From assembly GCA_040752415.1 (NCBI GenBank), contig JBFMGU010000015.1, positions 6,458 to 70,457 of the forward strand: DNA of 64,000 nt, read 5' to 3'. The position numbers and the translations under genes are program-made. Of the stretch, positions 5,531 through 56,604 are shown in pieces. Within the stretch, counting starts at the first letter, position 1, and the number at the start of each line of letters is the position of its first letter. A model generated the notes under the pieces. That model was not told where the DNA came from. It was given only the letters and a program-made list of their open reading frames with translations, and searched no databases. The DNA is from Myxococcota bacterium (GTDB lineage: Bacteria > Myxococcota > JACRCW01).

Positions 5531-5736
5531 GGCCGGGGGCAGCCTACAACCAACCCGCGGTGCTGGGGAGCCGCGTGGGACCGCCGGCGTCATCTCGCGC
5601 CAACGCTCTCGCCCGAGGGGCGCTCCGACGCGGAAAGCGCGGTGAAAAGCGCTGCGGTGCGTGGTAGTTGCGACGTCGCGCCGGCGTGGCGGGCCTCCCT
5701 CTGTTGGGCGGCGCGCGGCCGGCAAGGAAGGGCCCC

Positions 5737-10802: not shown

Positions 10803-12638
10803 TCATTGGGCATGTTCGTCCGGTTCCATGTGGGCCGCCAGCAGCAGTCCATCAATCTGCTCGACCAGGGCTGCCACGTGCGAAATGTTCTCCCGTAGGC
10901 TCTGCAGCGCCGCGACGAAGGCCTGATCCGCCTGTGCCACACCGACGGCAAGGGCATCCGCCATCCCCTCCAAGGCCCGGCTGATGCGTTGTTTGACGTC
11001 GTCAGAGTGTGCGCCGTCCGGGTGCAGGCGGAGGTATTCCGCCCACCCGAGGCTCAGCCTGTTCACCTCGCAATCCAGGCTCCCGTCGCACGGTCCGCGC
11101 GTCACGGCGAGCGCGGCATGGAACGCGATGTCATCCGCGCTGGGCATGCGTCGCCAATCCTCGTGAAGGCGCCACAGGACACCCGGCTCCACCGCGCACG
11201 CGCGTCGGGACATCACGTCGCCGTAGGCTCGTCTGAGCGTCTTCTCGTCGGCGCCGCGGTCGCACGCCAGCTGGAGCGCGAGCAGGCGCATCAGTTCCAG
11301 CCTGGCAACGTCGTCGGGCTCGCCGTCTTCGAAGAGGGCGTCGGACAGGAAATTGACGAGGTCGGCCGCGTCGACGGCGGAGATGTTGGCATCGGCGAGG
11401 CGTCGGGCCCCGAGGGTGAGCGCGAGGGGATGCATGCGGTCCTGGGTGACCCCCGACGTCGTCAGGTCCAGGGAAACCCACCCATCCACGCGCTGCAGGT
11501 TTCTTCGGACCCACACGTATTCCGTGTGACACCAGTCGCTCCGTTCCTGCGGCAGTCTGCAGACCACGCGGGTGCCCAAGGGCAGCTTCATCAGTTCTCC
11601 CGCCGAGGTGGACGGGGCAGCGCGGACCCTCCCGCCACTGACGACGGTGAGGCGGTGTTCGCGCGGGTCTCCCACCGGAACCGGCGGCGGTTGGGGCTGC
11701 AGCCCAAGGGATTCCAACAGCTCCGGCCGAAACCGACGGAGGTTGACCACGAGCTGCGAGCGCGGCGACCCTTCTGCGGCGGGTGCCCTCTCCGACGAGA
11801 GCGAGTCCAACATGCGGCGGTAGAGGTCGAGACACTGCACCTCCTCCATGCGACCAGCCGCCGGGGCAAAGCTCTGCCAGCCGTTGCACGCCTTCGTCCA
11901 CACGGCGACGCCCAGCTCGTGGGCCACCCAGAGTCGTTCCCCATCCCACGCGAGATCATGGATGACGAAGCCACACGGTGCATCCACGTGCTCGATCTCG
12001 TCGGTGTCCCAGCGATAGCGGAGCAGACCTTGCCGCGGCGTGGGGCCCATGCACTCGTAGTTCGCGTAGGTGCCCATCCACAGCCATTCCCCGTCGTGGG
12101 CAACGGGAGCCACGCTGGCATTGCGCACCACCTCGGGGAACCTCAGCTCGGGCACACGAGCGCCCCGCCGGTAGCGGCCGATTGCGCCGAGTCCGTCCGC
12201 CCCCTCGCCCTCGTAGAAACCAACGCCGAAGAAGATGGAGGCACCGACACGCGCGCAGCTCGCGGGACGGACGTCGAGGTCCTGGCCGTAGCGGAGGTGC
12301 GGACGCAAGCGCCTGGCCAGCGCGGCATCCAGCTCCAGTTCGGGCACCATTTCGTCACAGCGAGGAGCGGACCTGCGTGAGTCGCACACGTTGGCCCTTC
12401 CGTCGCTCGGCGCGCTCCATCCTTGCTCCCCGTTCCAGCGCCAGGCCGTCACGGGGTTGTCCAGCGGAAAACAGCCCTCGTTGGATGCGAACGAAAACAC
12501 CCGCACACCGGAGCGTTCTACGCGGACGACGTGCACGGCGGGATAGCCGGTCTCGTCGAGACACAACACCGCGGCCAAAGCGTTCGTGGTGAGCGCGGTT
12601 GCGAGGATGCCGCCGAGAAACGGCGGTAGCGCGCGCAT
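10803..12638 (-). CDS. Hypothetical secreted protein
   Basis: The 611-aa ORF has the signal peptide MRALPPFLGGILATALTTNALAAV, strong GC3 bias and Trp/Cys-rich regions. It starts 7 nt downstream of the upstream gene on the same strand. Confidence 0.6.
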   Translation of the reverse strand: MRALPPFLGGILATALTTNALAAVLCLDETGYPAVHVVRVERSGVRVFSFASNEGCFPLDNPVTAWRWNGEQGWSAPSDGRANVCDSRRSAPRCDEMVPELELDAALARRLRPHLRYGQDLDVRPASCARVGASIFFGVGFYEGEGADGLGAIGRYRRGARVPELRFPEVVRNASVAPVAHDGEWLWMGTYANYECMGPTPRQGLLRYRWDTDEIEHVDAPCGFVIHDLAWDGERLWVAHELGVAVWTKACNGWQSFAPAAGRMEEVQCLDLYRRMLDSLSSERAPAAEGSPRSQLVVNLRRFRPELLESLGLQPQPPPVPVGDPREHRLTVVSGGRVRAAPSTSAGELMKLPLGTRVVCRLPQERSDWCHTEYVWVRRNLQRVDGWVSLDLTTSGVTQDRMHPLALTLGARRLADANISAVDAADLVNFLSDALFEDGEPDDVARLELMRLLALQLACDRGADEKTLRRAYGDVMSRRACAVEPGVLWRLHEDWRRMPSADDIAFHAALAVTRGPCDGSLDCEVNRLSLGWAEYLRLHPDGAHSDDVKQRISRALEGMADALAVGVAQADQAFVAALQSLRENISHVAALVEQIDGLLLAAHMEPDEHAQ

Positions 12639-12644
12639 GGTGCG

Positions 12645-14381
12645 TCACTCCATCGCGTCCAGCGTTGCCGACAAGGGCGTGCGCGTGGGGACGGGGCGCG
12701 TTCCCTGACTGCAGTCCACCGGGTCGGAGTCCACCTGCACCGACGCAATCTCGCCGGGGAAGCCCCAGTTGGATGGGGTGCCGCCGGGGGGACCGCCCAC
12801 CGCAAAGTCCCGCGCCGCAGCCACCTGTCGCAGCTGCGTGGTGGCGCTGTCATTGGCCTCTCTGACGCCGTCAATGTAGAGGCAGATGGAGACGCCCGGG
12901 TTCCACGACGCCTCGAGGTATGCCCACTCGTTCAGGTTGGTGATGGGGCCGTTGACGCGGTTGAAGTTGTTGGGAATGTCGTTGTCGCCCTGGTCCCAGC
13001 GCTGGTCACGCACTTCCCACGACGTGCGGCTGAATCCAGGCTCCATGTACAGCTGCCAGCCGTTCTTGTCGGACTCCAGCACGTTCTCCGCGCGCGCCAC
13101 GACGAGCACGCTCCCTCCTCCCGTCCTGCGCACCCACGCACGAACGTGCACTGGAACGCTCTGGCCGCCACCAATGGCTTGCGGGGGCTGGTCGGTGAGG
13201 AAGTTGCCCTCCATGCGCCGGTTGTTCTGCGACACGTAGGCTCCGGGGCCCGCGCCGGTCGTGAAGAGGGGCATGGTGTTGTTGCCCTGCAGGGTCAGCG
13301 TGGTGCCACCGGGGACGCCCGACACCGCCACCGCGCCGTAACGCGACTGCGCGCCCGCCATGGACCAATAGGCGCGTGGCGACGTGGTGGGCACTCCCGT
13401 GGGGAATGCCTCGACGGGATCATCCAGCACCGTGGGCGGCGCGGCGCTTCCCACGAGGACGAACCACGACGACGAGGCGAGGTCCAGGACGTCGATCATG
13501 AACGCGATGGAGAGGTCCTCCTGGCCGCCGCTGTACCCATGCGCCACCAGGCGACGATGGACCTGCGTCCATACGCCACGCTCACAACGGGCCAGCTGGA
13601 CGTCGGAGTTGTCGCTCTGCAGGGAACGGGTGAGCACGTCCGACGTCAACGGCGCCACCACGGGCACACGCGCGTCCGTGAAGGTCCCGCTCCCGAAGGT
13701 GACGCGGAACCGCGTGCTGAACTGCGAGGGGTAGGGCTCCAGGTACCAGCAGTCGCACGGGTCCGCGGCCAGACAGAGGGGGCCCGCATCCACCTCAACG
13801 CGCGCGTCGGGAGGACCTGCGTCCGGGATGCCGCCCGAGGAGGACGTGCTGCTGGACGCGCTGCTGCCCGTTGCCGACGAGGCCGCGGCGCTGGACGAGG
13901 ATGACGACGTGGATCCGCCGCTGGACGTCGAGCCCGAAGACGACGCCGCGCTGGCGACGGACGAGCCGCTGCTGGAGGAGGACGCGCTGGATGCGGACGC
14001 GCTGTTCCCGGACGAGGACGACGATGTCGACACCGAGCTCACCGCAGCGCTGGCAGACGACGAGTTGGTGTTGCCCACCGACGAGCTCTCCCCGCCCGAC
14101 GATGAGGACGCCGTGGTCTCGACGACGAAGCCCGCATCCTGCGGCGCGCTGGCGGCCACGCACCACGTGCCGTTGCAGCGCTCACCGGGACTGCACTCCG
14201 CGTCGTCGGTGCAGGTGCGGCGACAGATGCCCTCGTCGGTGGCGCACACGTTCTGCGCGGCACAGTCGGCGTCCGTCTCACAGCGGTAGGTGGCGGCAAG
14301 ACAGGACGGCAGCGCCCACGCCACCACGACGCACGCCACGCCCTGCCACGGTGATGGCACCCCGCCTGTCCCCGCCCGCAT
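12645..14381 (-). CDS. Secreted protein with a Cys-rich N-terminal module, a Ser-rich linker and a LamG/concanavalin-like C-terminal region
   Basis: The ORF is 12645..14414. The probable start is MRAGTGG, followed by the signal VACVVVAWALPSCLA. About 90 aa of Ser/Ala/Gly low complexity precede a beta-rich C-terminal domain. Confidence 0.6.
   Translation of the reverse strand: MRAGTGGVPSPWQGVACVVVAWALPSCLAATYRCETDADCAAQNVCATDEGICRRTCTDDAECSPGERCNGTWCVAASAPQDAGFVVETTASSSSGGESSSVGNTNSSSASAAVSSVSTSSSSSGNSASASSASSSSSGSSVASAASSSGSTSSGGSTSSSSSSAAASSATGSSASSSTSSSGGIPDAGPPDARVEVDAGPLCLAADPCDCWYLEPYPSQFSTRFRVTFGSGTFTDARVPVVAPLTSDVLTRSLQSDNSDVQLARCERGVWTQVHRRLVAHGYSGGQEDLSIAFMIDVLDLASSSWFVLVGSAAPPTVLDDPVEAFPTGVPTTSPRAYWSMAGAQSRYGAVAVSGVPGGTTLTLQGNNTMPLFTTGAGPGAYVSQNNRRMEGNFLTDQPPQAIGGGQSVPVHVRAWVRRTGGGSVLVVARAENVLESDKNGWQLYMEPGFSRTSWEVRDQRWDQGDNDIPNNFNRVNGPITNLNEWAYLEASWNPGVSICLYIDGVREANDSATTQLRQVAAARDFAVGGPPGGTPSNWGFPGEIASVQVDSDPVDCSQGTRPVPTRTPLSATLDAME
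13833..14111 (-). repeat. Low-complexity Ser-rich (S/A/G/T) coding repeat
   Basis: Amino acids about 102-194 of the 12645..14414 protein are over 60% Ser, encoded by degenerate GCT/GGA/CGA-type triplet repeats. Confidence 0.7.
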
Positions 14382-14420
14382 GTCGCCAGCATACGGGGCG
14401 CCACGACGGGGCAACAGCGC

Positions 14421-15047
14421 TCACGCAGTGGGCGCAGGTGGGGGAAGCGACTCCACGAAACGGACTTCCTGGAAACCCAGGCTGATGAGCAGCGCGGTCA
14501 ACGCGCGTTGCGCCGACTGTTGCGCCCGACGACGCAGCGCCACGTCATTGGCCACGTCATTCTCGATGGCCTGGCGCGCCTGCTCCAGCATCTGCGCGGT
14601 GTGGGCGCTGTCCAGGTTGGAGTGGATGATCTCCGTCTCACCGGGGCGCAGCTCCACCCGCGTGCGGATGGGCGGGAGCACCAGGTCAATGCGTCGGCCC
14701 TGCACGCGCATGGTGGACGGGTCCAGACGGCTCAGGTCCAGGCCGAGCTGCGCGTTGGCAAAGACGATGGCGCGCCCACGCTCAGGCGCCACGGTGGCGC
14801 TGGCCCAGTTGGCGATGTTGCGCAGCGTGGAGGTGGATGGCGGCGGCGTCTCCGGCTCGAAGCTGACCTTGCGGTACAGGCTCACCTCCAGCGTCTCCAG
14901 GCGCGCCACCTCGCGCATGCGCTCCACCAGCGCCGGCGGGTCCGGGGCCAGCCAGGATGGCGACGGAGGCGCGCGCAGAGCCACCCACGTCCCGGCCGCA
15001 CAGGACACGCCCAGCACGAACCCCACCACCGCTCCCTTGACCCCCAT
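14421..15047 (-). CDS. DUF4230-family protein
   Basis: The ORF is 14421..15065. The start MGVKGAVVGFVLGVSCAAG has an N-terminal TM segment, and the body is a typical DUF4230-like secreted domain. Confidence 0.6.
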   Translation of the reverse strand: MGVKGAVVGFVLGVSCAAGTWVALRAPPSPSWLAPDPPALVERMREVARLETLEVSLYRKVSFEPETPPPSTSTLRNIANWASATVAPERGRAIVFANAQLGLDLSRLDPSTMRVQGRRIDLVLPPIRTRVELRPGETEIIHSNLDSAHTAQMLEQARQAIENDVANDVALRRRAQQSAQRALTALLISLGFQEVRFVESLPPPAPTA

Positions 15048-15296
15048 GATCCGGCCTCCTCTCACGTGGTCCTACCTGTGAGCAGGAAGCGTGCCCGGGG
15101 CCTGCGCAAAGGGCTTCCGAGGGTTGTCCGGTGGGATGTCCTGGGGCGCGTGTCATCGTGGACGCACGGTGTGGACGCCGGGCTTCACCGGGATGCACCC
15201 ACGGCGGATTGCACGGGGCACACATCTGCCGCTACGACCAGGGTCCGGTCCCGCGGCGAGAACCTCCGTCGGGACGCATTGCGACAGGAGCTTGTC

Positions 15297-15572
15297 ATGG
15301 CCGTGAACGTCAGGATTCCCACCCCGCTGCGCAAGTACACCGCCGACAAGGAGACGGTGTCGGTCAGCGCCAGCAACGTGGGGGAGCTGCTCCAGAACCT
15401 GGAGAAGGCGGCCCCCGGCATCAAGGAGCGGCTGGTGGATGAGTCCGGCAACGTGCGCCGCTTCGTCAACATCTACGTGCGCGACGAGGACATCCGTTTC
15501 CTGGACGGCGTCAAGACCGCGCTGAAGGATGGCGACGAGGTCAGCATCGTCCCCGCCATTGCCGGCGGCTGA
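15297..15572 (+). CDS. cysO: MoaD/ThiS-family sulfur-carrier protein CysO
   Basis: This 91-aa protein ends in GlyGly. The motif RFVNIYVRDEDIRF...GDEVSIVPAIAGG closely matches mycobacterial CysO. It lies 13 nt upstream of cysM. Confidence 0.85.
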   Translation: MAVNVRIPTPLRKYTADKETVSVSASNVGELLQNLEKAAPGIKERLVDESGNVRRFVNIYVRDEDIRFLDGVKTALKDGDEVSIVPAIAGG

Positions 15573-15584
15573 GCTCCCCGCAGC

Positions 15585-16505
15585 ATGCAGTACGCCCCCC
15601 TCAAGCCGCGGCGGCCGCTGGCGAGCATCCTGGATGCCGTTGGCAACACGCCGCTCATCCGGTTGCGCAGCATTGAGCGGAGCGCGCCGCACAGCCGCAT
15701 CTACGCCAAGGCGGAGTTCCTCAACCCCGGCGGAAGCGTGAAGGACCGGCCCGCGTTGCAGATGGTGCAGGAGGCGGTGGCCGACGGGCGGCTGACCCGC
15801 GACCGGATCCTCATCGACTCCACCAGCGGCAACACCGGCGTGGCCTACAGCCTGGTGTGCGCGGCCATGGGCTACCGTTGCACGCTGGTGATGCCCGCCA
15901 ACGTGAGCCAGCCGCGCAAGGACATCACGCGCGCGTTTGGGACGGAGCTGGTGTTCTCCAGTGAGCTGGAGGGCAGCGACGGCGCCATCATGCTGGTGCG
16001 CAAGATGGTGGCGGAGGAGCCGGACCGGTACTTCTTCTGCGACCAGTACGGGAATCCGGGAAACCCGCGCGCCCATGAGCTGGGCACGGGCCCGGAGATC
16101 CTGCGCGACTGCCCGGACGTCACGCACTTTGTGGCCGGCGTGGGGACCACCGGCACGGTGATGGGAACCAGTCGCGCGCTCAAGAAGTATGACCGCAGGA
16201 TCCGCTGCGTGGCGCTGCATCCGGATGACGCCATGCACGGGCTGGAAGGGCTCAAGCACCTGGCCAGCTCCATTGTGCCGCGCATCTGGGACGCCGCCAC
16301 GCTGGATGAGCACCTCACCATCACCACCGATGAGGGCTGGGACATGGCGGACCGCCTGGCGCGCGAGGAGGGCCTGATGGTGGGCCACTCCGCGGGAGCC
16401 AACGTGGCGGGCGCGGTGCGGGTGGCGCGCGCGAACCCGGGCGCCGTGGTGGTCACCGTGCTCTGCGACGGAGCAAGCCGGTACCTGCCGGTGCTGCGCT
16501 GGTGA
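15585..16505 (+). CDS. cysM: Cysteine synthase CysM (CysO-thiocarboxylate dependent type)
   Basis: The PLP motif NPGGSVKDRPA is present, with the GNTG and GTGGT loops. It is adjacent to cysO, as in the actinobacterial mec-cysO-cysM locus. Confidence 0.85.
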   Translation: MQYAPLKPRRPLASILDAVGNTPLIRLRSIERSAPHSRIYAKAEFLNPGGSVKDRPALQMVQEAVADGRLTRDRILIDSTSGNTGVAYSLVCAAMGYRCTLVMPANVSQPRKDITRAFGTELVFSSELEGSDGAIMLVRKMVAEEPDRYFFCDQYGNPGNPRAHELGTGPEILRDCPDVTHFVAGVGTTGTVMGTSRALKKYDRRIRCVALHPDDAMHGLEGLKHLASSIVPRIWDAATLDEHLTITTDEGWDMADRLAREEGLMVGHSAGANVAGAVRVARANPGAVVVTVLCDGASRYLPVLRW

Positions 16506-23932: not shown

Positions 23933-24403
23933 TCAGCGGAAGAAGGTCGCGTGACAGGCCACGCACGTTTCCGTCAGTTGCCCGAAGGCCCGGGCGATAT
24001 CCGCGTCATTCCCCTTGGCCGCCGTCCGGGCCAAAACCCCGGCGCGCTCCTGCAGCAGGTCCTGGATGATGAAGAACCGCTCGGGAATCTCCGCGTTGAC
24101 TTCGTTGCCGGTCATGCCCAGCGGCCGCGCCACCTTGGGCTCGCTGGCAATGCTGTCCGCCAAATGCTCCGTCTGATCATGCTCCAACAGCAGCACCGAC
24201 CAGATCAGCTCCTCCATGTCGTCGCCGTGGCGCATCATGCGCGGCCACACCACCACACGGGAAACCTCGTTGAGGTCCTCGCCGCCCGCCCGCGGCGGCG
24301 GAATGTCCGTGGCCACGTCCTGGTTGGCCCAGGCCTGCACCCCCATCGACGCAGCCACTCCCAACGCCAACCCGAAGAACAACCACCACGCGCGCGACTT
24401 CAT
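23933..24403 (-). CDS. Class II cytochrome c (cytochrome c'-like)
   Basis: A signal peptide is present. The single CxxCH motif, CVACH, sits within 10 aa of the C-terminus, and the protein is about 150 aa with helical predictions. Confidence 0.65.
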   Translation of the reverse strand: MKSRAWWLFFGLALGVAASMGVQAWANQDVATDIPPPRAGGEDLNEVSRVVVWPRMMRHGDDMEELIWSVLLLEHDQTEHLADSIASEPKVARPLGMTGNEVNAEIPERFFIIQDLLQERAGVLARTAAKGNDADIARAFGQLTETCVACHATFFR

Positions 24404-24480
24404 GGCGAACGCTCCAGTCCGGGACGGGGTCGACGTCACCTCGTCGCCGCGGAGGGGTGTGCATGCGCGGTGCCAGGGAA

Positions 24481-24819
24481 TCAGCGTTGCATCCGCTCCG
24501 CCAAGAACACATGCCGCCCCGCCTTCATGGCGCGCAGGCCCTGGACGGTGATCCGTTGACCGGTCACGACGTCCTGCCCGGCGACCAGGTGCACCTCCAA
24601 CACGTCATCCTGCGTGCGGAGCATGAGCTGCACGCCCTCCGGCACGCGCTTGAGGGCAACCACCTCTCCCTGCACCGTCTCCTCGCGGGTGACATCCCGT
24701 GCGTTGCTGGCAGCGGGCTTCTTCCATCCGTCCAGCGCCGCCGCCGTGGCGGGACCCAGCGGAACCGCAAGCGTGACGAGGACGAACAGCCCGTACACAG
24801 CCATGTTTTCACGCGACAT
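24481..24819 (-). CDS. Hypothetical small periplasmic protein
   Basis: The start MSRENMAVYGLFVLVTLAVPLG has a signal or TM segment followed by a beta-rich domain. Confidence 0.45.
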   Translation of the reverse strand: MSRENMAVYGLFVLVTLAVPLGPATAAALDGWKKPAASNARDVTREETVQGEVVALKRVPEGVQLMLRTQDDVLEVHLVAGQDVVTGQRITVQGLRAMKAGRHVFLAERMQR

Positions 24820-24925
24820 GATCAACGACCTCGCTGAATTGCGTCGTCGTTTCGCAAGAAACCTGCCATCATTCCCGAGCTGGGGTGATGGCGTGATGCG
24901 CAACGTGTGCGGGTGGAGGAAAACA

Positions 24926-25399
24926 ATGCGCTGGTTGGTGATGGCGACGTTGACGCTGGTGCTCGCCTGTGAGCGCTACGACGAGCCCAACCGTCCCCTG
25001 CCGCCGCTGCAGCTGGAGCATGTGGATGGGCGAGCGCTGGACTTGTCGTCGCTGCGCGGGCGCCCGGTGGTGATCAATCTCTGGTTGCCAGGTTGAGCGT
25101 CCTGTCTCCGGGAGTTGCCCGGAGTGGAAGCGGTCCGACGGGAATTCCAGCCCCGTGGCGTGGAGTTCATGGCGCTCTCGTTGCACCCGGTGGCGGATGA
25201 GGTGGTGCGCGCCGCCAGCAAGCATGGTGTGGGCTCGACGGTGGCGTTGGCGCGCGGTGAGGTGCTGGGACCCCTGGGGTTGCGCGTGGTGCCGGCCACG
25301 GTGTTCGTGGATGCCAAAGGCGTGATGGTGGCGTCCGCCGAAGGAGAACGGAGCGAGGCGTTCTTCCGACGACGGGTGAAGGCACTACTTGCGGAGTGA
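24926..25399 (+). CDS. TlpA/ResA-like lipoprotein thiol:disulfide oxidoreductase with an in-frame TGA (candidate selenocysteine, U-A-S-C motif)
   Basis: The lipobox is MRWLVMATLTLVLAC. The protein reads ...RPVVINLWLPG-TGA-ASCLRELPGVEAV...VPATVFVDAKG, which aligns residue-for-residue with TlpA (NLWATWCVPCRKEMP ... LVDPQG). The TGA sits at the first Cys of CxxC. ORF-track entries 24614..25096 and 25115..25399 share one frame. A SECIS-like hairpin follows. Confidence 0.6.
25106..25124 (+). other. Candidate bacterial SECIS hairpin
   Basis: A 7-bp stem CTCCGGG / CCCGGAG has the loop AGUUG. It starts 10 nt after the UGA at 25094-25096. Confidence 0.45.
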
Positions 25400-25678
25400 G
25401 GCGCGCGCGGATTCCAGCCAGCGGTCCTGCTGTTCCGGCGTTCCCTCCTCGAACTCACGCAGGTGCACCGGGCACATGAAGCCGATGACGACGCCGCGGT
25501 GCGTGGCGCGGAACGTGGGATTCAACGGGTCTCCCGCAACAGGCTCGCCGGAAACGGGACACACGCGGTTGCCCAGCACCGGCGCGTCGACGAGGGTGGG
25601 CCGCACCTCCGTGGATGGGGGCTCGGTGCACGCCGCGGCAGTGGACATCAGGAAGGTCACCAACAGGAACGTACGCAT
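25385..25678 (-). CDS. Small Cys-containing lipoprotein (YHS-like metal-binding motif)
   Basis: The start MRTFLLVTFLMSTAAAC gives a lipobox. The motifs CPVSGEPV ... GVVIGFMCPVHLREFEE resemble YHS/TRASH-type metal-binding proteins. This is the C-terminal 97 aa of ORF 25385..26437. Confidence 0.55.
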   Translation of the reverse strand: MRTFLLVTFLMSTAAACTEPPSTEVRPTLVDAPVLGNRVCPVSGEPVAGDPLNPTFRATHRGVVIGFMCPVHLREFEEGTPEQQDRWLESARASLRK

Positions 25679-25683
25679 CGTCG

Positions 25684-26433
25684 TCACCAGAACATGATCA
25701 CATAGCCACGGCCGCCCCACTCCCAACCCAACGAAACATGCGGCACCACGCCCAACGCCGCGCCTGCCACGAGCAGCATCCACACTCCCGAGATGGGGAG
25801 CAGCAGCGAGGGAATACGTTGCAGGAGGGAGACGCGGTCCAGGCGCAGCATCCGCGCCAGCATCATGACGCTGCCCAAAGGGACAGTGGTCATCAGCACC
25901 AGCAACAACATCACCAGCGCGCCGTGCAGCGGACTGCGCGTGCTCGCGGCCACCACCAACGCCCACGCCACGATCATGCACGGCAAGCCCGCCATGATGG
26001 TACCGAGCACCCACGAGCGACCGATGCTGCGTCCGTCGGCGAGCGCCACCAGGCGGGTCATCACGCGCGGCAGCAAAGGCCGTTGCCCCAACGTCACCAC
26101 GTCTGACCGGCGCTGGAGGTGACCACGCAGCGGCCAGAGGATCATGCCCAGCCCCAGCACGACGGAGAAGTAGGGCGCGGCGTGTTGCAGCACGTCGGAG
26201 ATGGAGCGGCCGAGCAGACCCGCCAGCGCACCCAGCAGCGCGTACACCGTGGCGCGACCGAGCTGGTACGCGGCGAGATGCGCCCCCACGCGACCCACGT
26301 TCGCGCCACGCGTGCAGCCGCCCAGGTCGAGCCCGAGCACCAACGGCCCGCACATGCCCGCACAGTGGAACGTGATCCACAGCAGGCCCAGGCTGATGAG
26401 CTGCGCATAGGCAGCGCTGACGACGGCGTCCAT
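25684..26433 (-). CDS. DsbD_2/UreH-like family membrane protein (conserved HCxxMCG and PC motifs)
   Basis: The start is MDAVVSAAYAQ. About six TM segments are predicted. HCAGMCGP lies in TM1 and a second LPCM lies in a later TM, like CcdA-type thiol transfer proteins. The gene is divergent from ccoI. Confidence 0.65.
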   Translation of the reverse strand: MDAVVSAAYAQLISLGLLWITFHCAGMCGPLVLGLDLGGCTRGANVGRVGAHLAAYQLGRATVYALLGALAGLLGRSISDVLQHAAPYFSVVLGLGMILWPLRGHLQRRSDVVTLGQRPLLPRVMTRLVALADGRSIGRSWVLGTIMAGLPCMIVAWALVVAASTRSPLHGALVMLLLVLMTTVPLGSVMMLARMLRLDRVSLLQRIPSLLLPISGVWMLLVAGAALGVVPHVSLGWEWGGRGYVIMFW

Positions 26434-26629
26434 GCAAGTTTCCCGGACGCTCCAGAGCAATCCTTGCGCCAGCTTTCCGCGCGTTGGGCCCTCACGCTCC
26501 AGCGCAACATCGCGCGCAACGGTTGCAGTCGTTCTTGCGTGCAACGCAGGGGTTTCGGACGCGCCCCCCGACCTTCCCCCCGGGAATCCACATGTTGGTT
26601 CGGCACGGCGCGTGCTCAGTGCCGCGGCA

Positions 26630-29029
26630 ATGTCGTCCACCTGCCTGCATTGCCAAGGTCCCATCTCCGACGCGGACGCTCCGGGCGGTTACTGCTGCGT
26701 CGGTTGCGCCACGGTGGCGGAGTTGCTTCGCAGCCGCGGACTGGAGCGTTACTACGCGTTTCAATCCGTCGCTGGTCAGCCGGTGACGTTGTCCGCTCGC
26801 GCCCGAGACCAGGCGTGGCTGGAAGCGCCGCTGAAGGACGCGGAGGCGCGGGCGCACGGCGGGCTGGCGCACATGGACGTGGACGTGCAGGGGTTGCGCT
26901 GCAGCGCGTGCGTGTGGCTGCTGCGTGAGCTCTTCCTGCAACAGCCGGGCGGCGCGGAAGCCATCATCAATCCCGCGGTGGGGCGCGCCACGCTGACCTG
27001 GCAGCCGGGCCGGACGGATGTGGCAGCGTGGTGCCGTGACGTCGAGCGCTTTGGCTACAGCGTGGGTCCCGCGCGGAAGATGGAGGCCTCGCGCTCCGAC
27101 CGCGTGCTCACCCGCCTGGGCATCAGCACTGCGCTCACCATGAACTCCATGATGTTCACCATTGCGCACTACGTGGGCATGACCCCGTCCGACGGCGAGG
27201 TCTTCCACCTGATGCGCTGGTTGAACCTGGCGCTCAGCGTGGGCGTGCTGCTCATTGGTGGCTGGGAGTTCTTCTCGCGCAGCTACCTGAGCCTGCGCCA
27301 GCGCATCATTCCCTTCGACCTTCCCATCGCATTAGGGCTTTCGTTGGCCTTCGCCGGCTCGCTCCACGTCTTCGTGACGCGGCCGGACACGTTCTCCTAC
27401 TTTGACACGCTCAACACCTTCACCACGCTGATGCTCGTGGGGCGGTGGCTGCAGGAGCGGGTGTTGGAGCAGAACCGTCGGAGGCTGCTGGCCAATGACG
27501 GCGTGGAAGGGCTGCTGGCGCGTCGGGTGCGCGAGGGGCGCGTGGAGACGGTGGCCGCGGAGAAGCTCACGCGCGGCGACACCGTGGTGGTTCCGCCGGG
27601 TGGGCTCCTGGTGGCGGACGGCATCCTCGTTGACGAGGGCGCCAGCTTCTCCCTGGACTGGATCAACGGTGAGTCCATCCCGCGCAGCTTCAACCCCGGA
27701 CAGACCGTCCCCGCGGGCTCCTTCAACGCGCACGACCGCGCCGCGTTGGTGGTGCTGGACGTGGACTTCCGCGACTCCTCCCTGCTTCCGTTGCTGTCCC
27801 GTCCGCCGCAGGAGCAGGAGAGCGCGGATGACCCCATGCTGCTGCAGCGCCTGACGCGCATCTACGTGCCCGCGGTGCTCACGCTGGGGATGCTGGGCTT
27901 CCTGCTGTGGTTGCCCTCCGGCGTGGAGCGCGCGGTCGAGGTGACGACGAGCCTGCTGGTGGTGACCTGTCCGTGCGCGCTGGGGCTGGCCATTCCGCTG
28001 GCATGGCAGCGCATGGCCGCGGCGTTGCGCCAGCGTGGGCTCTTTGTCTGCAACCCGTCGTTCATGGACCGCGCGGTGCGCGTGCGTCGCGTGGCCTTTG
28101 ACAAGACCGGCACGTTGACGCTGGGCGCGCTGCGACTCGCCAATCCGCAGGAGCTCACGTCGTTGAGCCCGGCGTTGCAGACCCTGCTGTACAACATGAC
28201 CGCGCGCAGCTCGCACCCCCGCAGCCGTGCGGTGCACCAGGCCATCCCCGCCGCGCACGCACGCTTCGACGCCTCCGTTTCCGTCGTGGAGCGGCCCGGC
28301 CTTGGGCTGGAGGCGCGGGACGCGCAGGGACGCCTGGTGCGCCTGGGCCTTCCGTCCTGGACCGGTGGGGTGCAGAGCTCCGACGAGGGCGTGTGGCTCT
28401 CCGTGGACCTGGCGGTGGTGGCGCGCTTCCGCCTGCAGGAGACGCTGCGCTGGGACGCGCGCGTGGAGCTGGATGCGTTGCGCCGCGGCGGTCACGACGT
28501 GGTGGTGCTGAGCGGTGACGCCCCCGAGCGCGTGGACGACGTGGCGCGCGCGCTCAACCTTCCCGCCCGCGCCGCCGTGGGTGGACTGTCTCCGCAGGGC
28601 AAGGCGGAGTGGCTCCAGGCCCATTCCTCCGCGTCGGACACGCTCTTCATTGGCGACGGCGTCAATGACCGGCCCGGTTTCCGGGAAGCGCTCTGCAGCG
28701 GCACGCCCGCCGTGGACCACCCCGCGCTGAGCTGCGTCACCGACTTCTACTACCTGACGCCTGGCATCGGTTGCGTGCGCACCGTGCTGGACGCTGCGCG
28801 GCAACTGCAACGGGTCACGCGGAACATCCGCAACGTGGCGCTGAGCTACAACGTCCTCGCCGTCAGCCTGTGCCTGGCGGGCGTGGTGACGCCGTTGATT
28901 GCCGCGGTGGCCATGCCCGCCAGCTCCATCTTCATCCTTGTCTACGCCGTGCGTGGCACCACGCTGGCGTCCTCCCGCTCCGGGAAGGACGCGGAGCTGG
29001 CCACCGCCGCGGCACCGGTGACTGCATGA
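26630..29029 (+). CDS. ccoI: Heavy-metal (copper) P1B-type ATPase CcoI/FixI-like
   Basis: The N-terminus has CLHCQGPI...CCVGC. The TM motif is CPC, followed by DKTGTLT and GDGVNDRP. It leads the cbb3 cluster. Confidence 0.85.
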   Translation: MSSTCLHCQGPISDADAPGGYCCVGCATVAELLRSRGLERYYAFQSVAGQPVTLSARARDQAWLEAPLKDAEARAHGGLAHMDVDVQGLRCSACVWLLRELFLQQPGGAEAIINPAVGRATLTWQPGRTDVAAWCRDVERFGYSVGPARKMEASRSDRVLTRLGISTALTMNSMMFTIAHYVGMTPSDGEVFHLMRWLNLALSVGVLLIGGWEFFSRSYLSLRQRIIPFDLPIALGLSLAFAGSLHVFVTRPDTFSYFDTLNTFTTLMLVGRWLQERVLEQNRRRLLANDGVEGLLARRVREGRVETVAAEKLTRGDTVVVPPGGLLVADGILVDEGASFSLDWINGESIPRSFNPGQTVPAGSFNAHDRAALVVLDVDFRDSSLLPLLSRPPQEQESADDPMLLQRLTRIYVPAVLTLGMLGFLLWLPSGVERAVEVTTSLLVVTCPCALGLAIPLAWQRMAAALRQRGLFVCNPSFMDRAVRVRRVAFDKTGTLTLGALRLANPQELTSLSPALQTLLYNMTARSSHPRSRAVHQAIPAAHARFDASVSVVERPGLGLEARDAQGRLVRLGLPSWTGGVQSSDEGVWLSVDLAVVARFRLQETLRWDARVELDALRRGGHDVVVLSGDAPERVDDVARALNLPARAAVGGLSPQGKAEWLQAHSSASDTLFIGDGVNDRPGFREALCSGTPAVDHPALSCVTDFYYLTPGIGCVRTVLDAARQLQRVTRNIRNVALSYNVLAVSLCLAGVVTPLIAAVAMPASSIFILVYAVRGTTLASSRSGKDAELATAAAPVTA

Positions 29030-29204
29030 ACATCGTCCCGCTCATGGTGTTTGTGAGCCTGATGCTGGTGGCGGCATCGCTCTTGCTCTTCGGTCACAGC
29101 ATGGCACGCAAGGATCACCAGCACGCGGACCGCCTGGCCCTGCTGCCCATGACGGATTCGGAATCCCCCCGCGCGGAAGCGCAGGAAATTACGTCGGAGA
29201 AGAC

Positions 29205-29208
<4 letters not shown>
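29026..29208 (+). CDS. ccoS: cbb3 oxidase maturation protein CcoS-like
   Basis: The 60-aa protein has a single TM, MNIVPLMVFVSLMLVAASLLLFGH. It has an ATGA overlap with ccoI, the position where ccoS lies in ccoGHIS-type clusters. Confidence 0.55.
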
Positions 29209-31519
<2,311 letters not shown>

Positions 31520-31523
<4 letters not shown>

Positions 31524-53208: not shown

Positions 53209-53580
53209 GCGGTCCTCCGTGGCGGTGATCCCGCGTCAACCACCTTGCGTGAGGCCACAGCGGCGTGGGGCGCGGACGCGGACGGTCTCGCCGCAACGCA
53301 GGAATCCCGGCGTTTATAACCAGCCGTCACGACGAGGGCAGGGAGGTGCCGCGCCCGGGCCATCACTGCGGCGCGGCCAGCTCAAGACGGAGCCCGCAGC
53401 GGTTGGGCCACTCGCTGGCAGCGCTTCCTCAACACGCGTTCCATGCTGCGCATTTCCGCGTGGCGTCGGATGTCGCGCGTGTTCCCACGTTGTGGCACCA
53501 CGCTCCCGCACACCGCGCAGGATGTTCTGCGGTCGGGGTTTCTCGCCGGTATGACAGGCCGGCAAACGCGCTTCACGTTC

Positions 53581-53594
53581 CGCGTTCAAACGCG
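53581..53594 (+). promoter_or_regulatory. Inverted repeat CGCGTT-ca-AACGCG abutting the aceB Shine-Dalgarno
   Basis: The 6-bp arms lie 10 nt upstream of the ATG. The repeat CAAACGCG is also present 24 nt further upstream. Confidence 0.3.
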
Positions 53595-53604
53595 TGAGGA
53601 CCAC

Positions 53605-55215
<1,611 letters not shown>

Positions 55216-55299
55216 GCTTCTGAGGCAGTCCCAAGCACGCGCGGCCATGAACCCGGCGTCGCGAGTGCTTCCGTGCGCCAGCCGGGTGGAAGACACGTC

Positions 55300-56604
55300 A
55301 TGAAAGAGACCAGCGCATCATCTGGGCGTGCACCCATCAATCCGCAGAACCGCTCGCCGGTGGACTTCCCCGACACCCGTCGCTGGGAGGGCATCACCCG
55401 GCCGTACACGGTGGAGGACGTGCACAGGCTGCGCGGCTCGGTCCGCATCCAGCACACGCTGGCGGAGATGGGAGCGCGGCGACTGTGGCAGCTGCTCACC
55501 ACGGAGGACTTCGTGGCGGCGCTGGGCGCGGTGAGTGGCAACCAGGCCATGCAGATGGCGCGCGCGGGATTGAAGTCCATCTACGTGAGCGGTTGGCAGG
55601 TGGCGGCGGATGCCAATGTTGCGGGGCATACCTACCCGGACCAGAGCCTCTACCCGGCCAACAGCGTGCCCACGCTGGTGCGACGCATCAACCAGGCGCT
55701 GCAGCGCGCGGACCAGGTGGATCACGCGGAAGGACGCAAGGAACGGGACTGGTTCCTGCCGCTCATGGCCGACGCGGAGGCGGGCTTTGGCGGACCGCTG
55801 AATGCCTTCGAGCTGATGAAGTCGTTGATCGAGGCGGGCGCGGCGGGCGTGCACTACGAGGACCAGCTGTCCAGCGAGAAGAAATGCGGTCACCTGGGCG
55901 GGAAGGTGCTGGTGCCCACCAGCCAATTCATCCGCACGCTGATTGCCGCGCGGCTGGCCGCCGACGTCATGGGAGTGCCCACGCTGCTGGTGGGGCGGAC
56001 GGATGCGCACAGCGCGCGGCTCATCACGTCCGACGTGGACCCGCTCGATCATCCGTTCATCGTGAAGAACAAGCGGACCGCGGAAGGGTTCTTTGTGCTG
56101 GAGGGCGGCCTCAAGTGCGCCATTGCGCGCGGGCTGGCCTATGCGCCGTACGCGGACATCATCTGGTGTGAGACGTCCACGCCGGACCTGAAGGAGGCGC
56201 GGGAGTTCGCGGAAGGGATCCACGCCAAGTTCCCGGGGAAGCTGCTGGCGTACAACTGCTCGCCGTCATTCCACTGGAAGAAGCATCTTGACGACGCCAC
56301 GGTGGCGCGCTTCCAGCGTGAGCTTGGCGCCATGGGATACAAGTACCAGTTCGTGACGCTGGCGGGGTTCCACGCGTTGAATCACAGCATGTTCGAGCTG
56401 GCGCGCGGGTACCGCGACGAGGGCATGACCGCGTACACCCGGCTGCAGCAGGCGGAGTTCGCCGCGGAGAAGGACGGCTACACCGCCACGCGGCACCAGC
56501 GGGAGGTGGGGACGGGCTACTTTGACCAGGTTGCGGAGGTGATTTCCTGCGGGACGGCCAGCACGCTGGCGCTCGCGGAGTCCACGGAGACGCAGCAGTT
56601 CTGA
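55300..56604 (+). CDS. aceA: Isocitrate lyase
   Basis: The catalytic loop KKCGH is present, with a full-length ICL pattern. It follows aceB, giving the glyoxylate shunt operon. Confidence 0.9.

What the first reader, a model, noticed from the sequence alone, without database searches (positions are those of the whole stretch)
24926..25399. TlpA-like periplasmic thiol:disulfide oxidoreductase with an in-frame UGA at the first Cys of CxxC plus a SECIS-like hairpin: candidate selenoprotein
The ORF-track entries 24614..25096 and 25115..25399 are in the same frame and 18 nt apart.

- Reading through the TGA at 25094-25096 gives MRWLVMATLTLVLAC...RPVVINLWLPG-U-ASCLRELPGVEAVRREF...VPATVFVDAKGVMV...
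- This aligns position-for-position with TlpA/ResA redoxins, whose consensus is ..VNLWATWC-VP-C-RKEMP.. and cis-Pro ..LVDPQG..
- The stop codon sits exactly where the nucleophilic Cys of CxxC belongs, giving a U-A-S-C redox motif.
- Nine nt after the UGA there is a 7-bp GC stem, CTCCGGG/CCCGGAG (25106-25124). Its 5-nt loop AGUUG contains G-U. The distance and geometry are those expected of a bacterial SECIS element.
- Gene callers would report two fragments or a pseudogene here.

The gene sits among cytochrome and copper maturation genes (see the next finding), where a high-reactivity Sec redoxin makes biological sense. The alternative is a single C-to-A nonsense mutation (TGC to TGA) in an ordinary tlpA.
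Basis: partly seen in the sequence, partly recalled or inferred. Interest (0 to 1): 0.85.

Follow-up and report, generated by a model that had tools for sequence, protein, structure and literature searches.

The report
Selenocysteine TlpA-like periplasmic redoxin gene
A small gene for an exported thiol-reducing lipoprotein has a UGA "stop" at its catalytic cysteine position followed by a conserved RNA hairpin, and seven other related bacterial sequences share this layout, so it is very probably a real selenocysteine protein that annotation splits into two "hypothetical" fragments; it is a new member of a well-known class, not a new kind of system.

Summary
One reading frame runs from ATG 24926 to TGA 25397-99 and is interrupted only by TGA 25094-96. 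That TGA falls on the first Cys of the CxxC motif of a ResA/TlpA-like redoxin. A perfect 7-bp hairpin (25106-25124, loop AGUUG) starts 9 nt downstream.

The selenoprotein interpretation is strongly supported by comparative data.
- The protein belongs to a Myxococcota redoxin lipoprotein subfamily with the motif W-x-P-G-[U/C]-x-x-C.
- About two thirds of its 50%-identity cluster representatives are annotated as fragments that start just after the motif.
- All seven other in-frame orthologue sequences I fetched for such fragments (34-57% identity to the window) carry TGA at exactly this codon. All have an open, conserved frame downstream and the hairpin at the same position. An eighth (L027) also has the TGA but is frameshifted.
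- Three of the 7 stem pairs show compensatory double changes.
- Five orthologues carry TGC (Cys). Four of them lack the hairpin.
- The element meets all four constraints of the published bacterial SECIS consensus.

Not shown: the Sec machinery (selA/B/C/D) of this MAG, which is outside the window and unreachable, and actual selenium incorporation.

UxxC redoxin selenoproteins are already catalogued, so this is a new member of a known kind. The cbb3/copper neighbourhood is specific to this genome.

The parts
24916..24920 (+). Shine-Dalgarno-like GGAGG, 5 nt upstream of the start codon
   Evidence: Read directly from the sequence.
24926..25399 (+). Complete selenoprotein coding sequence: 157 residues (Sec at residue 57) plus the terminal TGA. 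NCBI annotates it as two hypothetical proteins.
   Evidence: Translation. Pfam Redoxin/AhpC-TSA. ResA structures at E=1e-12. Fragment annotations P0169 and P0001.
24926..24970 (+). Signal peptide with a lipobox-like L-V-L-A-C15, so the predicted product is a lipoprotein facing the periplasm (inferred)
   Evidence: Sequence. Almost all aligned orthologues (11 of 12; L016 is the exception) have an equivalent hydrophobic stretch ending in [GA]-C followed by D/E/N (alignment).
25094..25096 (+). In-frame UGA, proposed Sec57, at the position of the N-terminal (nucleophilic) Cys of the CxxC motif (U-A-S-C)
   Evidence: It aligns with the first Cys of ResA. The same column is TGA in 8 sequences and TGC in 5.
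25103..25105 (+). Cys60 codon (TGT), the resolving Cys of the UxxC motif
   Evidence: It is a Cys in all 13 aligned Sec and Cys forms.
25106..25124 (+). SECIS-like upper stem-loop: 7-bp stem CUCCGGG/CCCGGAG with apical loop AGUUG, 16 nt between UGA and loop
   Evidence: Fold (-13.1 kcal/mol for the 25-nt piece). Present at the same position in all 8 TGA forms. 98% of cells are paired and 3 of 7 pairs have compensatory changes. It meets the published bSECIS constraints (PMC13188914).
25292..25294 (+). Pro123 codon, the invariant proline of the thioredoxin-fold cis-Pro loop (VPAT)
   Evidence: Invariant column P123 in the 35-sequence family alignment. It aligns with the ResA cis-Pro region.
25397..25399 (+). 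True stop codon (TGA) of the gene. TGA is therefore an ordinary stop in this genome.
   Evidence: Most high-GC3 frames in the window end in TGA.
25684..26433 (-). Neighbouring DsbD_2-family membrane protein (HCAGMCGP motif). It is a candidate electron donor for the redoxin. This is context only and is inferred. The upper coordinate is approximate.
   Evidence: Pfam DsbD_2 at E=1.7e-29. It is not conserved next to orthologues.

Best explanation
Window 24926-25399 encodes one 157-residue exported lipoprotein of the ResA/TlpA-like thioredoxin-fold redoxin class. Its nucleophilic active-site residue is selenocysteine (U57-A-S-C60).

Proposed mechanism:
- During translation the UGA at 25094-96 is not read as stop. 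The mRNA hairpin at 25106-25124 (7-bp stem, loop AGUUG, 16 nt from UGA to loop) acts as a bacterial SECIS element. It recruits SelB with Sec-tRNA(Sec) to the ribosome. This step is inferred from geometry, conservation and covariation.
- After export and lipidation the selenolate attacks disulfides in periplasmic client proteins. Cys60 resolves the resulting selenenylsulfide, and a membrane thiol-disulfide transporter re-reduces the redoxin. These steps are inferred from the well-established chemistry of CxxC redoxins such as ResA, TlpA and CcmG.
- In this genome the likely clients are components of the adjacent cbb3 oxidase, copper ATPase and cytochrome c cluster. That assignment is weak because orthologues sit in other neighbourhoods.

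Shown here: the split frame, homology on both sides of the UGA, the Sec/Cys pairs, and the conserved, covarying hairpin.
Inferred: Sec insertion itself, export, and the substrate.
For: 1. Placement of the TGA. The frame and homology put it on the first Cys of CxxC.

2. A defined subfamily. It has the motif W-x-P-G-C-x-x-C and is found in Myxococcota. Among 50%-identity cluster representatives, 23 carry the CxxC motif. Another 41 are fragments of about 45-125 aa that lack it; most start within about 40 residues after its position.

3. DNA of the fragment-type relatives I fetched. L001, L011, L012, L013, L016, L024 and L026 (with near-identical copies L014/15, L017/18, L025) all have TGA at the identical codon. 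They are 34-57% identical to the window protein. Neither TAA nor TAG occurs there. Downstream, about 100 codons stay open and are conserved. L027 has the same TGA but also a frameshift.

4. Cys counterparts. L002, L019, L021, L022 and L023 carry TGC at that codon. L019 is syntenic with the Sec loci L011 and L012.

5. The hairpin. It is present in 8 of 8 TGA forms (-10 to -17 kcal/mol). No equivalent hairpin exists in 4 of 5 TGC forms (-6 to -9). In the TGA forms 98.2% of stem cells are paired. Three of the 7 pairs have double (compensatory) changes. One example is a synonymous GCC>GCU that pairs with a Gly>Glu GGG>GAG change in L012. None of 500 shuffles reaches the observed covariation score. 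Register-slid controls are 9-64% paired.

6. The published bSECIS consensus is met on all four points. These are loop 3-9 nt, stem 4-16 bp, a G within the first two loop positions, 16-37 nt from UGA to loop, and MFE of -7.5 kcal/mol or lower (PMC13188914; values).

7. Selection downstream. The part after the TGA is more conserved than the part before it (46-73% against 34-58% amino-acid identity). dN/dS is mostly 0.25-0.5.

8. TGA is otherwise a normal stop in this genome. 25094 is the only internal TGA in 64 kb with coding signal on both sides.

9. The Sec trait exists in Myxococcota. Anaeromyxobacter dehalogenans has 11 selenoproteins, including Sec thioredoxins and a DsbA-like protein (PMC1794560).
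Against: - No selA, selB, selD or tRNA-Sec lies in the 64-kb window or in the orthologue loci. The rest of this MAG could not be searched, so competence for Sec decoding is assumed, not shown.
- The four innermost stem pairs overlap conserved codons (Arg-Glu-x-Pro), so part of the hairpin would be kept by protein constraint alone. One Cys form (L019) also has the hairpin.
- Only 8 sequences support the covariation test, and they are related.
- A lower stem is not conserved.
- No Rfam SECIS model matches.
- There are no protein-level data.
Confidence: 0.88

Rival explanations
1. Pseudogene or assembly error. An ordinary tlpA-like gene in this MAG acquired a TGC/TGT-to-TGA nonsense change, or a consensus error, and makes no full-length product.
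For: NCBI annotates two fragments. The sequence comes from a MAG. One relative (L027) combines the TGA with a frameshift. The Sec machinery is unverified.
Against: The same TGA at the same codon occurs in seven other diverged in-frame sequences from different samples and assemblers, plus frameshifted L027. Neither TAA nor TAG occurs there. The downstream frame is open, conserved and under purifying selection. The hairpin shows compensatory changes, one of them (C-G for G-C at the outermost pair) unique to the window lineage.
Confidence: 0.04
2. The UGA is recoded, but not as selenocysteine. Either the hairpin promotes near-cognate readthrough (Trp, Cys or Arg), or this particular genome has lost the Sec machinery and the gene is a recently stranded selenoprotein gene.
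For: Sec insertion is not demonstrated and the machinery was not found in the window. Downstream hairpins can stimulate stop-codon readthrough in general (established knowledge).
Against: The recoded position is the redox-active Cys, and TGC alternates with TGA there. That is the classic Sec/Cys signature. The hairpin meets all bSECIS-specific constraints, including the loop G and the spacing. Trp or Arg at the nucleophile position would inactivate a CxxC redoxin.
Confidence: 0.06
3. There are two separate small proteins: a 56-aa lipopeptide and a 91-aa C-terminal protein started from an internal GTG/TTG.
For: This is how gene callers report it.
Against: The split falls inside the active-site motif of a single thioredoxin fold. 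The downstream start codons chosen by gene callers differ among orthologues (family positions 7, 13-14, 23-24 and others), with no conserved start or ribosome-binding site. The Cys forms are single proteins.
Confidence: 0.02

Closest known systems
[quoted passage not shown]
   Same: They share the fold class and Pfam families and the UxxC motif with Sec replacing the N-terminal Cys. They have Cys homologues and a SECIS inside the coding region just downstream of the UGA. They are found largely in former Deltaproteobacteria.
   Different: I could not retrieve the reference sequences (HEU0032618.1, WP_010940744.1, WP_011366075.1), so identity with one of these families is untested. The present subfamily has its own W-x-P-G-U-x-x-C signature and a lipoprotein signal. 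The named hits are all Myxococcota or 'Deltaproteobacteria' MAGs. The host has a cbb3 oxidase and a glyoxylate shunt, so it respires oxygen.
[quoted passage not shown]
   Same: It is a Sec-containing member of the ResA/TlpA superfamily, and it is the only selenoprotein-specific NCBIfam model that the window protein touches.
   Different: The score is 50 bits against a cut-off of 300. That model is 354 positions long against 157 residues here. The motif is WAxxUGC, not WxPGUxxC. The window protein is not a member.
ResA (Bacillus) and TlpA (Bradyrhizobium) Cys-type extracytoplasmic thiol-disulfide oxidoreductases
   Same: They are the best solved-structure relatives (4nmu E=1.4e-12; 1jfu E=3e-8). 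They share the CxxC-x-x-E-x-P active-site context, the cis-Pro, the membrane-anchored periplasmic location, and a genomic association with cytochrome and Cu-oxidase maturation in this window.
   Different: Sec replaces Cys. The anchor is a lipoprotein signal rather than a transmembrane helix. Scores are far below the NCBIfam ResA and TlpA cut-offs (56.8 against 170; 44 against 230), so it is a separate subfamily and not an equivalog.
Bacterial SECIS consensus (bSECISearch model; E. coli fdhF/fdnG type)
   Same: It is a stem-loop in the coding region immediately 3' of the UGA. The loop has G then U at positions 2-3, there are 16 nt from UGA to loop, the upper stem is 7 bp, and the MFE is below -7.5 kcal/mol.
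   Different: No conserved lower stem or bulged U is detectable. The spacing sits at the lower limit of the consensus range. Binding to SelB is untested.

Membership tests
Bacterial selenoprotein gene (UGA/bSECIS recoding) | In-frame UGA with conserved coding sequence on both sides | tested here: met
   Eight sequences keep the frame open. Amino-acid identity downstream of the UGA is 46-73%.
Bacterial selenoprotein gene (UGA/bSECIS recoding) | Homologues with Cys (TGC/TGT) aligned to the UGA | tested here: met
   TGC in L002, L019, L021, L022 and L023 at the same alignment column. 23 representative clusters carry CxxC.
Bacterial selenoprotein gene (UGA/bSECIS recoding) | bSECIS geometry: apical loop 3-9 nt, upper stem 4-16 bp, G in the first two loop positions, 16-37 nt from UGA to loop, MFE of -7.5 kcal/mol or lower (PMC13188914) | tested here: met
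   Loop AGUUG (5 nt, G at position 2), 7 bp, 16 nt, -13.1 kcal/mol.
Bacterial selenoprotein gene (UGA/bSECIS recoding) | SECIS conserved in Sec-containing orthologues, with covariation | tested here: met
   Present in 8 of 8 TGA forms. 98.2% of cells paired, 3 of 7 pairs compensatory, 0 of 500 shuffles reach the score. Absent from 4 of 5 Cys forms.
Bacterial selenoprotein gene (UGA/bSECIS recoding) | Genome encodes selA, selB, selC (tRNA-Sec) and selD | not testable with these tools
   None are in the window.
Bacterial selenoprotein gene (UGA/bSECIS recoding) | Selenium actually incorporated at the UGA | not testable with these tools
   This needs 75Se labelling or mass spectrometry.
ResA/TlpA-like thioredoxin-fold redoxin superfamily | Redoxin/AhpC-TSA domain above the curated threshold, with a CxxC-position motif and a cis-Pro | tested here: met
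   PF00578 at 44.1 bits (cut-off 26) and PF08534 at 43.4 bits (cut-off 26.6). The alignment to ResA 4nmu covers residues 25-145, with the active site and Pro aligned. P123 is invariant.
ResA (NF002854) / rhizobial TlpA (NF047696) named families | Score above NCBIfam's curated cut-off | tested here: not met
   56.8 bits against 170, and 44.2 bits against 230. It is a related subfamily, not an equivalog.
NF041054 WAxxUGC ResA-like selenoprotein | Score above the cut-off and the WAxxUGC motif | tested here: not met
   50 bits against 300. The motif here is WLPGUASC.
NF041383 VPGUxxT thioredoxin-like selenoprotein | Match to the model and the VPGUxxT motif | tested here: not met
   No hit at E of 1 or lower in the NCBIfam scan. 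The orthologues do have VPGU, but it is followed by xxC.
Catalogued 'Redoxin family protein' UxxC selenoprotein (PF08534; HEU0032618.1) | Sequence similarity to the reference protein | not tested
   The reference sequence could not be retrieved with these tools. The Pfam family and the motif class are the same.

The most novel reading that the evidence does not exclude
This may be a selenoprotein family that no catalogue yet holds: Myxococcota lipoprotein redoxins with the motif W-x-P-G-U-x-x-C. Roughly two thirds of lineages would use Sec, in bacteria that respire oxygen (cbb3 oxidase, glyoxylate shunt). Sec and Cys would have been exchanged recently at an orthologous locus, leaving an intact relic SECIS in a Cys form (L019). 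If so, it would be a counter-example to two statements in the 2026 review: that aerobes rarely keep selenoproteins, and that Sec-to-Cys reversion in bacteria is essentially limited to FdhA and SelD.
Probability: 0.4. Interest if true: 0.5.

Novelty: new member of a known kind. Interest (0 to 1): 0.42.

Why it matters
- It corrects an annotation. Two "hypothetical proteins" (AB2A00_04810 and AB2A00_04815), and dozens of similar fragment pairs in public databases, are really single selenoproteins.
- It adds a clade-specific, predominantly Sec-using subfamily to the ResA/TlpA redoxins. No current NCBIfam selenoprotein model recognises it.
- It gives a compact natural SECIS (7-bp stem, 16-nt spacing) with built-in comparative data.
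- It offers a Sec/Cys orthologue pair at a syntenic locus (L011/L012 against L019) for studying how bacteria switch between selenium and sulfur in an extracytoplasmic redox enzyme.
- It does not reveal a new mechanism.

Tried and rejected
- Synteny search with the neighbouring P-type ATPase in the genome collection found nothing. This showed that the MAG and its close relatives are absent there.
- Family alignments A1 and A2 were too diverse for pattern scans. A3 worked but gave only two family loci in genomes, and only the L002 duplicates in metagenomes.
The post-TGA piece was used instead.
- Looking up P0001 by exact sequence found no contig.
- Rfam gave no SECIS or tRNA-Sec match in the window or the loci. 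An ARAGORN 'tRNA-???' in L011 is inside a gene and Rfam does not support it.
- A conserved lower SECIS stem was tested and rejected.
- Three same-frame TGA-separated ORFs at 10803-15071 (-) looked like possible readthrough. They are ordinary adjacent genes, each with its own start 6 nt after the previous stop.
- Candidate sel genes by size (53320-56604 and others) turned out to be malate synthase, isocitrate lyase and other unrelated genes.
- A conserved functional neighbourhood was sought and not found. L001 follows glutamate synthase genes. L011, L012, L019 and L027 follow Big_5-domain protein genes, with multihaem cytochrome genes further upstream in the first three. The window gene sits beside cbb3 genes.
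- Searching for sel genes of this MAG with the protein database was judged unworkable, because hits cannot be filtered by genome.

Full report
**Observation.**
- A GGAGG at 24916-20 precedes ATG 24926.
- The frame runs to TGA 25397-99 and is broken only by TGA 25094-96: ...RPVVINLWLPG-TGA-ASCLRELPGVEAVRR...
- The two mechanical ORFs 24614..25096 and 25115..25399 are in the same frame and 18 nt apart.
- The hairpin CTCCGGG (25106-12), AGTTG, CCCGGAG (25118-24) folds as predicted.
- Its energy in a 61-nt context is not exceptional for this 68.6% GC sequence (z = -1.2). Perfect hairpins of at least 7 bp are rare, though. There are only 10 in 64 kb, and the chance of one in SECIS position after a given TGA is about 0.4%.
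- Of all TGA triplets in the window, only three have stop-free, coding-like frames (high GC3) for 50 codons on both sides. Two are ordinary gene boundaries. 25094 is the third.

**What the protein is.**
- With Cys substituted at the TGA, the 157-residue product passes the Pfam thresholds for AhpC-TSA and Redoxin.
- Its best matches among solved structures are ResA (4nmu, E=1.4e-12) and TlpA (1jfu). The TGA position aligns with the N-terminal Cys of CxxC, and VPAT aligns with the cis-Pro loop.
- The N-terminus (MRWLVMATLTLVLAC) looks like a lipoprotein signal. Almost all aligned orthologues (11 of 12; L016 is the exception) have an equivalent [GA]-C.
- It scores far below the NCBIfam cut-offs for ResA, rhizobial TlpA and the WAxxUGC selenoprotein family. 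It does not touch the VPGUxxT model.
- It is therefore a separate subfamily of the ResA/TlpA superfamily.

**Comparative evidence.**
- The word-indexed protein search found only the window's own fragments, annotated by NCBI as hypothetical proteins AB2A00_04810 and AB2A00_04815 of a Myxococcota MAG, plus distant WCxxC redoxins.
- An exhaustive HMMER search with the 100 residues after the TGA found a distinct family.
- Full-length members of about 155-170 aa carry W-x-P-G-C-x-x-C.
- A larger number of entries of about 45-125 aa lack the CxxC. Most begin at or shortly after query positions 7, 13-14 or 23-24, that is, just after the motif.
- Among the listed representatives, 23 have the motif and 41 are such fragments.
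- I recovered DNA for eight distinct fragment clusters besides the window: L001 from a genome scan, and L011, L012, L013, L016, L024, L026 and L027 by exact-protein look-up.
- Every one has TGA at exactly the first-Cys codon. Neither TAA nor TAG occurs there. Each also has a small upstream ORF that supplies the missing N-terminal half in frame.
- L027 additionally has a frameshift.
- Five relatives (L002, L019, L021, L022, L023) carry TGC at that codon.
- L019 (Cys) shares gene order with the Sec loci L011 and L012: DUF5818, Rce1-like, an unknown gene, multihaem cytochrome, an intervening gene (Big_5-domain in L012 and L019), redoxin, then PlsB and ArgS. Sec and Cys therefore alternate at an orthologous locus.

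**The RNA element.** In all eight in-frame TGA forms a hairpin lies at the same place. The six distinct versions are:
- window: CUCCGGG-AGUUG-CCCGGAG
- L001, L024, L026: GCCCGGG-AGUUU-CCCGGGC
- L011: GUCCGGG-AGUUU-CCCGGAC
- L012: GCUCGGG-AGUUG-CCCGAGC
- L013: GCCCGGG-AGUUU-CCCGAGC (one mismatch)
- L016: GCCCGGG-AGGCU-CCCGGGC

Statistics on the alignment A4:
- 98.2% of the 7-pair stem cells are standard pairs.
- The three outer pairs each show changes on both sides.
- None of 500 column shuffles reaches the observed covariation score.
- Sliding the 3' arm by 1-3 nt drops pairing to 9-64%.
- One compensation couples a synonymous change (Ala GCC>GCU) with a non-synonymous one (Gly GGG>Glu GAG). 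This points to selection on the RNA rather than the protein.

Further points on the element:
- A lower stem is not conserved.
- Hairpin energies are -10 to -17 kcal/mol in the TGA forms. In four Cys forms they are -6 to -9 kcal/mol, with no equivalent structure.
- The fifth Cys form, L019, keeps the exact L011 hairpin.
- The window element satisfies every constraint of the published bacterial SECIS consensus. These are loop 3-9 nt, stem 4-16 bp, G in the first two loop positions followed by G or U, 16-37 nt from UGA to loop, and MFE of -7.5 kcal/mol or lower (PMC13188914). The spacing of 16 nt is at the lower limit.

**Selection.** The region after the TGA is better conserved than the region before it (46-73% against 34-58% amino-acid identity). 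Rough Nei-Gojobori dN/dS is mostly 0.25-0.5, with synonymous sites near saturation. The downstream half is therefore translated in this frame. TGA remains the ordinary stop in this genome: the gene itself and most neighbours end in TGA. This is local recoding and not a variant genetic code.

**Context and function.**
- In the window the gene lies beside several respiratory genes:
  - a cytochrome c'-like gene (23933-24439, -)
  - an unknown small lipoprotein (25385-25678, -), which overlaps the redoxin's 3' end by 15 nt
  - a DsbD_2-family membrane protein (25684-~26433, -)
  - a CcoI-like P-type ATPase (to 29029)
  - a fused ccoNO (29022-31523)
  - ccoP and ccoG
- That fits a TlpA/ResA-type role in maturing cytochromes or copper centres.
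- The neighbourhood is not conserved. L001 follows glutamate synthase genes. L011, L012, L019 and L027 follow Big_5-domain protein genes, with multihaem cytochrome genes further upstream in the first three. L022 has a DsbD nearby, and others differ.
- The chemistry is inferred from family knowledge: selenolate attack, resolution by Cys60, and re-reduction by a membrane transporter. The client proteins remain unknown.

**What is not shown.** The window has no tRNA, no Rfam hit, and no SelA, SelB or SelD domain. The orthologue loci have none either. Sec-decoding competence is supported only indirectly: by the family-wide conservation of UGA plus SECIS, and by the literature record that Anaeromyxobacter (Myxococcota) has 11 selenoproteins (PMC1794560).

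**Comparison with what is known, and novelty.**
- UxxC thioredoxin-fold selenoproteins are among the commonest predicted bacterial selenoproteins. The 2026 catalogue lists 'Redoxin family protein' (PF08534), 'Prx-like thiol:disulfide oxidoreductase' (PF00578), 'Thiol:disulfide interchange protein' (PF13098) and a 'UGC-containing TlpA' family.
- The present gene works like these and belongs to the same kind.
- It is not a member of the two Sec families for which NCBIfam models could be tested. Whether it coincides with the catalogued 'Redoxin family protein' could not be tested.
- I therefore rate it a new member of a known kind. It is well supported and useful for annotation. It has modest extra interest from its oxygen-respiring host and the Sec/Cys switch with a retained hairpin.

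Noticed in passing
L019 6184-6230 (and the identical L020), compared with L011 9962-10010: A Cys (TGC) orthologue in a Myxococcaceae MAG keeps the exact SECIS-like hairpin GUCCGGGAGUUUCCCGGAC of the Sec form L011. It sits in the same gene order as the Sec loci L011 and L012. This looks like a recent Sec-to-Cys conversion with a relic SECIS, or a pre-adapted Cys form. The 2026 review calls such reversions rare outside FdhA and SelD.
   Followed up: partly
L027 707-1197: This Logan contig has the same in-frame TGA and hairpin, but also a frameshift shortly after ...GLESVRRR. It is either an assembly error or a decaying copy.
   Followed up: no
L012 ~5590-5640: The Sec orthologue in L012 has an in-frame tandem duplication of about 8 residues (GTIVAAAR/GTIVAAAS) in the C-terminal beta-strand region.
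   Followed up: no
window 25385-25678 (-): A 97-aa predicted lipoprotein (MRTFLLVTFLMSTAAAC...) with CPVSGEP and FMCPVH motifs and no Pfam hit. It is convergent with the redoxin gene, overlaps its 3' end by 15 nt, and starts 5 nt downstream of the stop of the DsbD_2 gene. It could be a metal-binding accessory protein of the cbb3/copper cluster.
   Followed up: partly
window 29022-31523 (+): The catalytic subunit CcoN (COX1 domain) and the mono-haem subunit CcoO (FixO domain) of the cbb3 oxidase are encoded as a single 833-codon open frame, so they are apparently fused.
   Followed up: no
window 25684-26664 (-): A DsbD_2-family membrane protein with an HCAGMCGP motif lies divergent from the CcoI-like ATPase. 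The long mechanical ORFs of the two genes overlap, so the true starts are probably near 26433 (-) and 26630 (+).
   Followed up: no
window ~15300-16505 (+): A small ORF ending ...VSIVPAIAGG-stop (a ThiS/MoaD-like C-terminal Gly-Gly) lies directly upstream of a PALP-family enzyme in the same frame. This resembles a sulfur-carrier-dependent cysteine synthase pair (CysO/CysM type).
   Followed up: no
L011 6953-7047 (+): ARAGORN reports a 95-nt 'tRNA-???' with a two-base anticodon inside a called 494-aa gene. Rfam finds no tRNA or tRNA-Sec there, so it is probably a false positive.
   Followed up: partly
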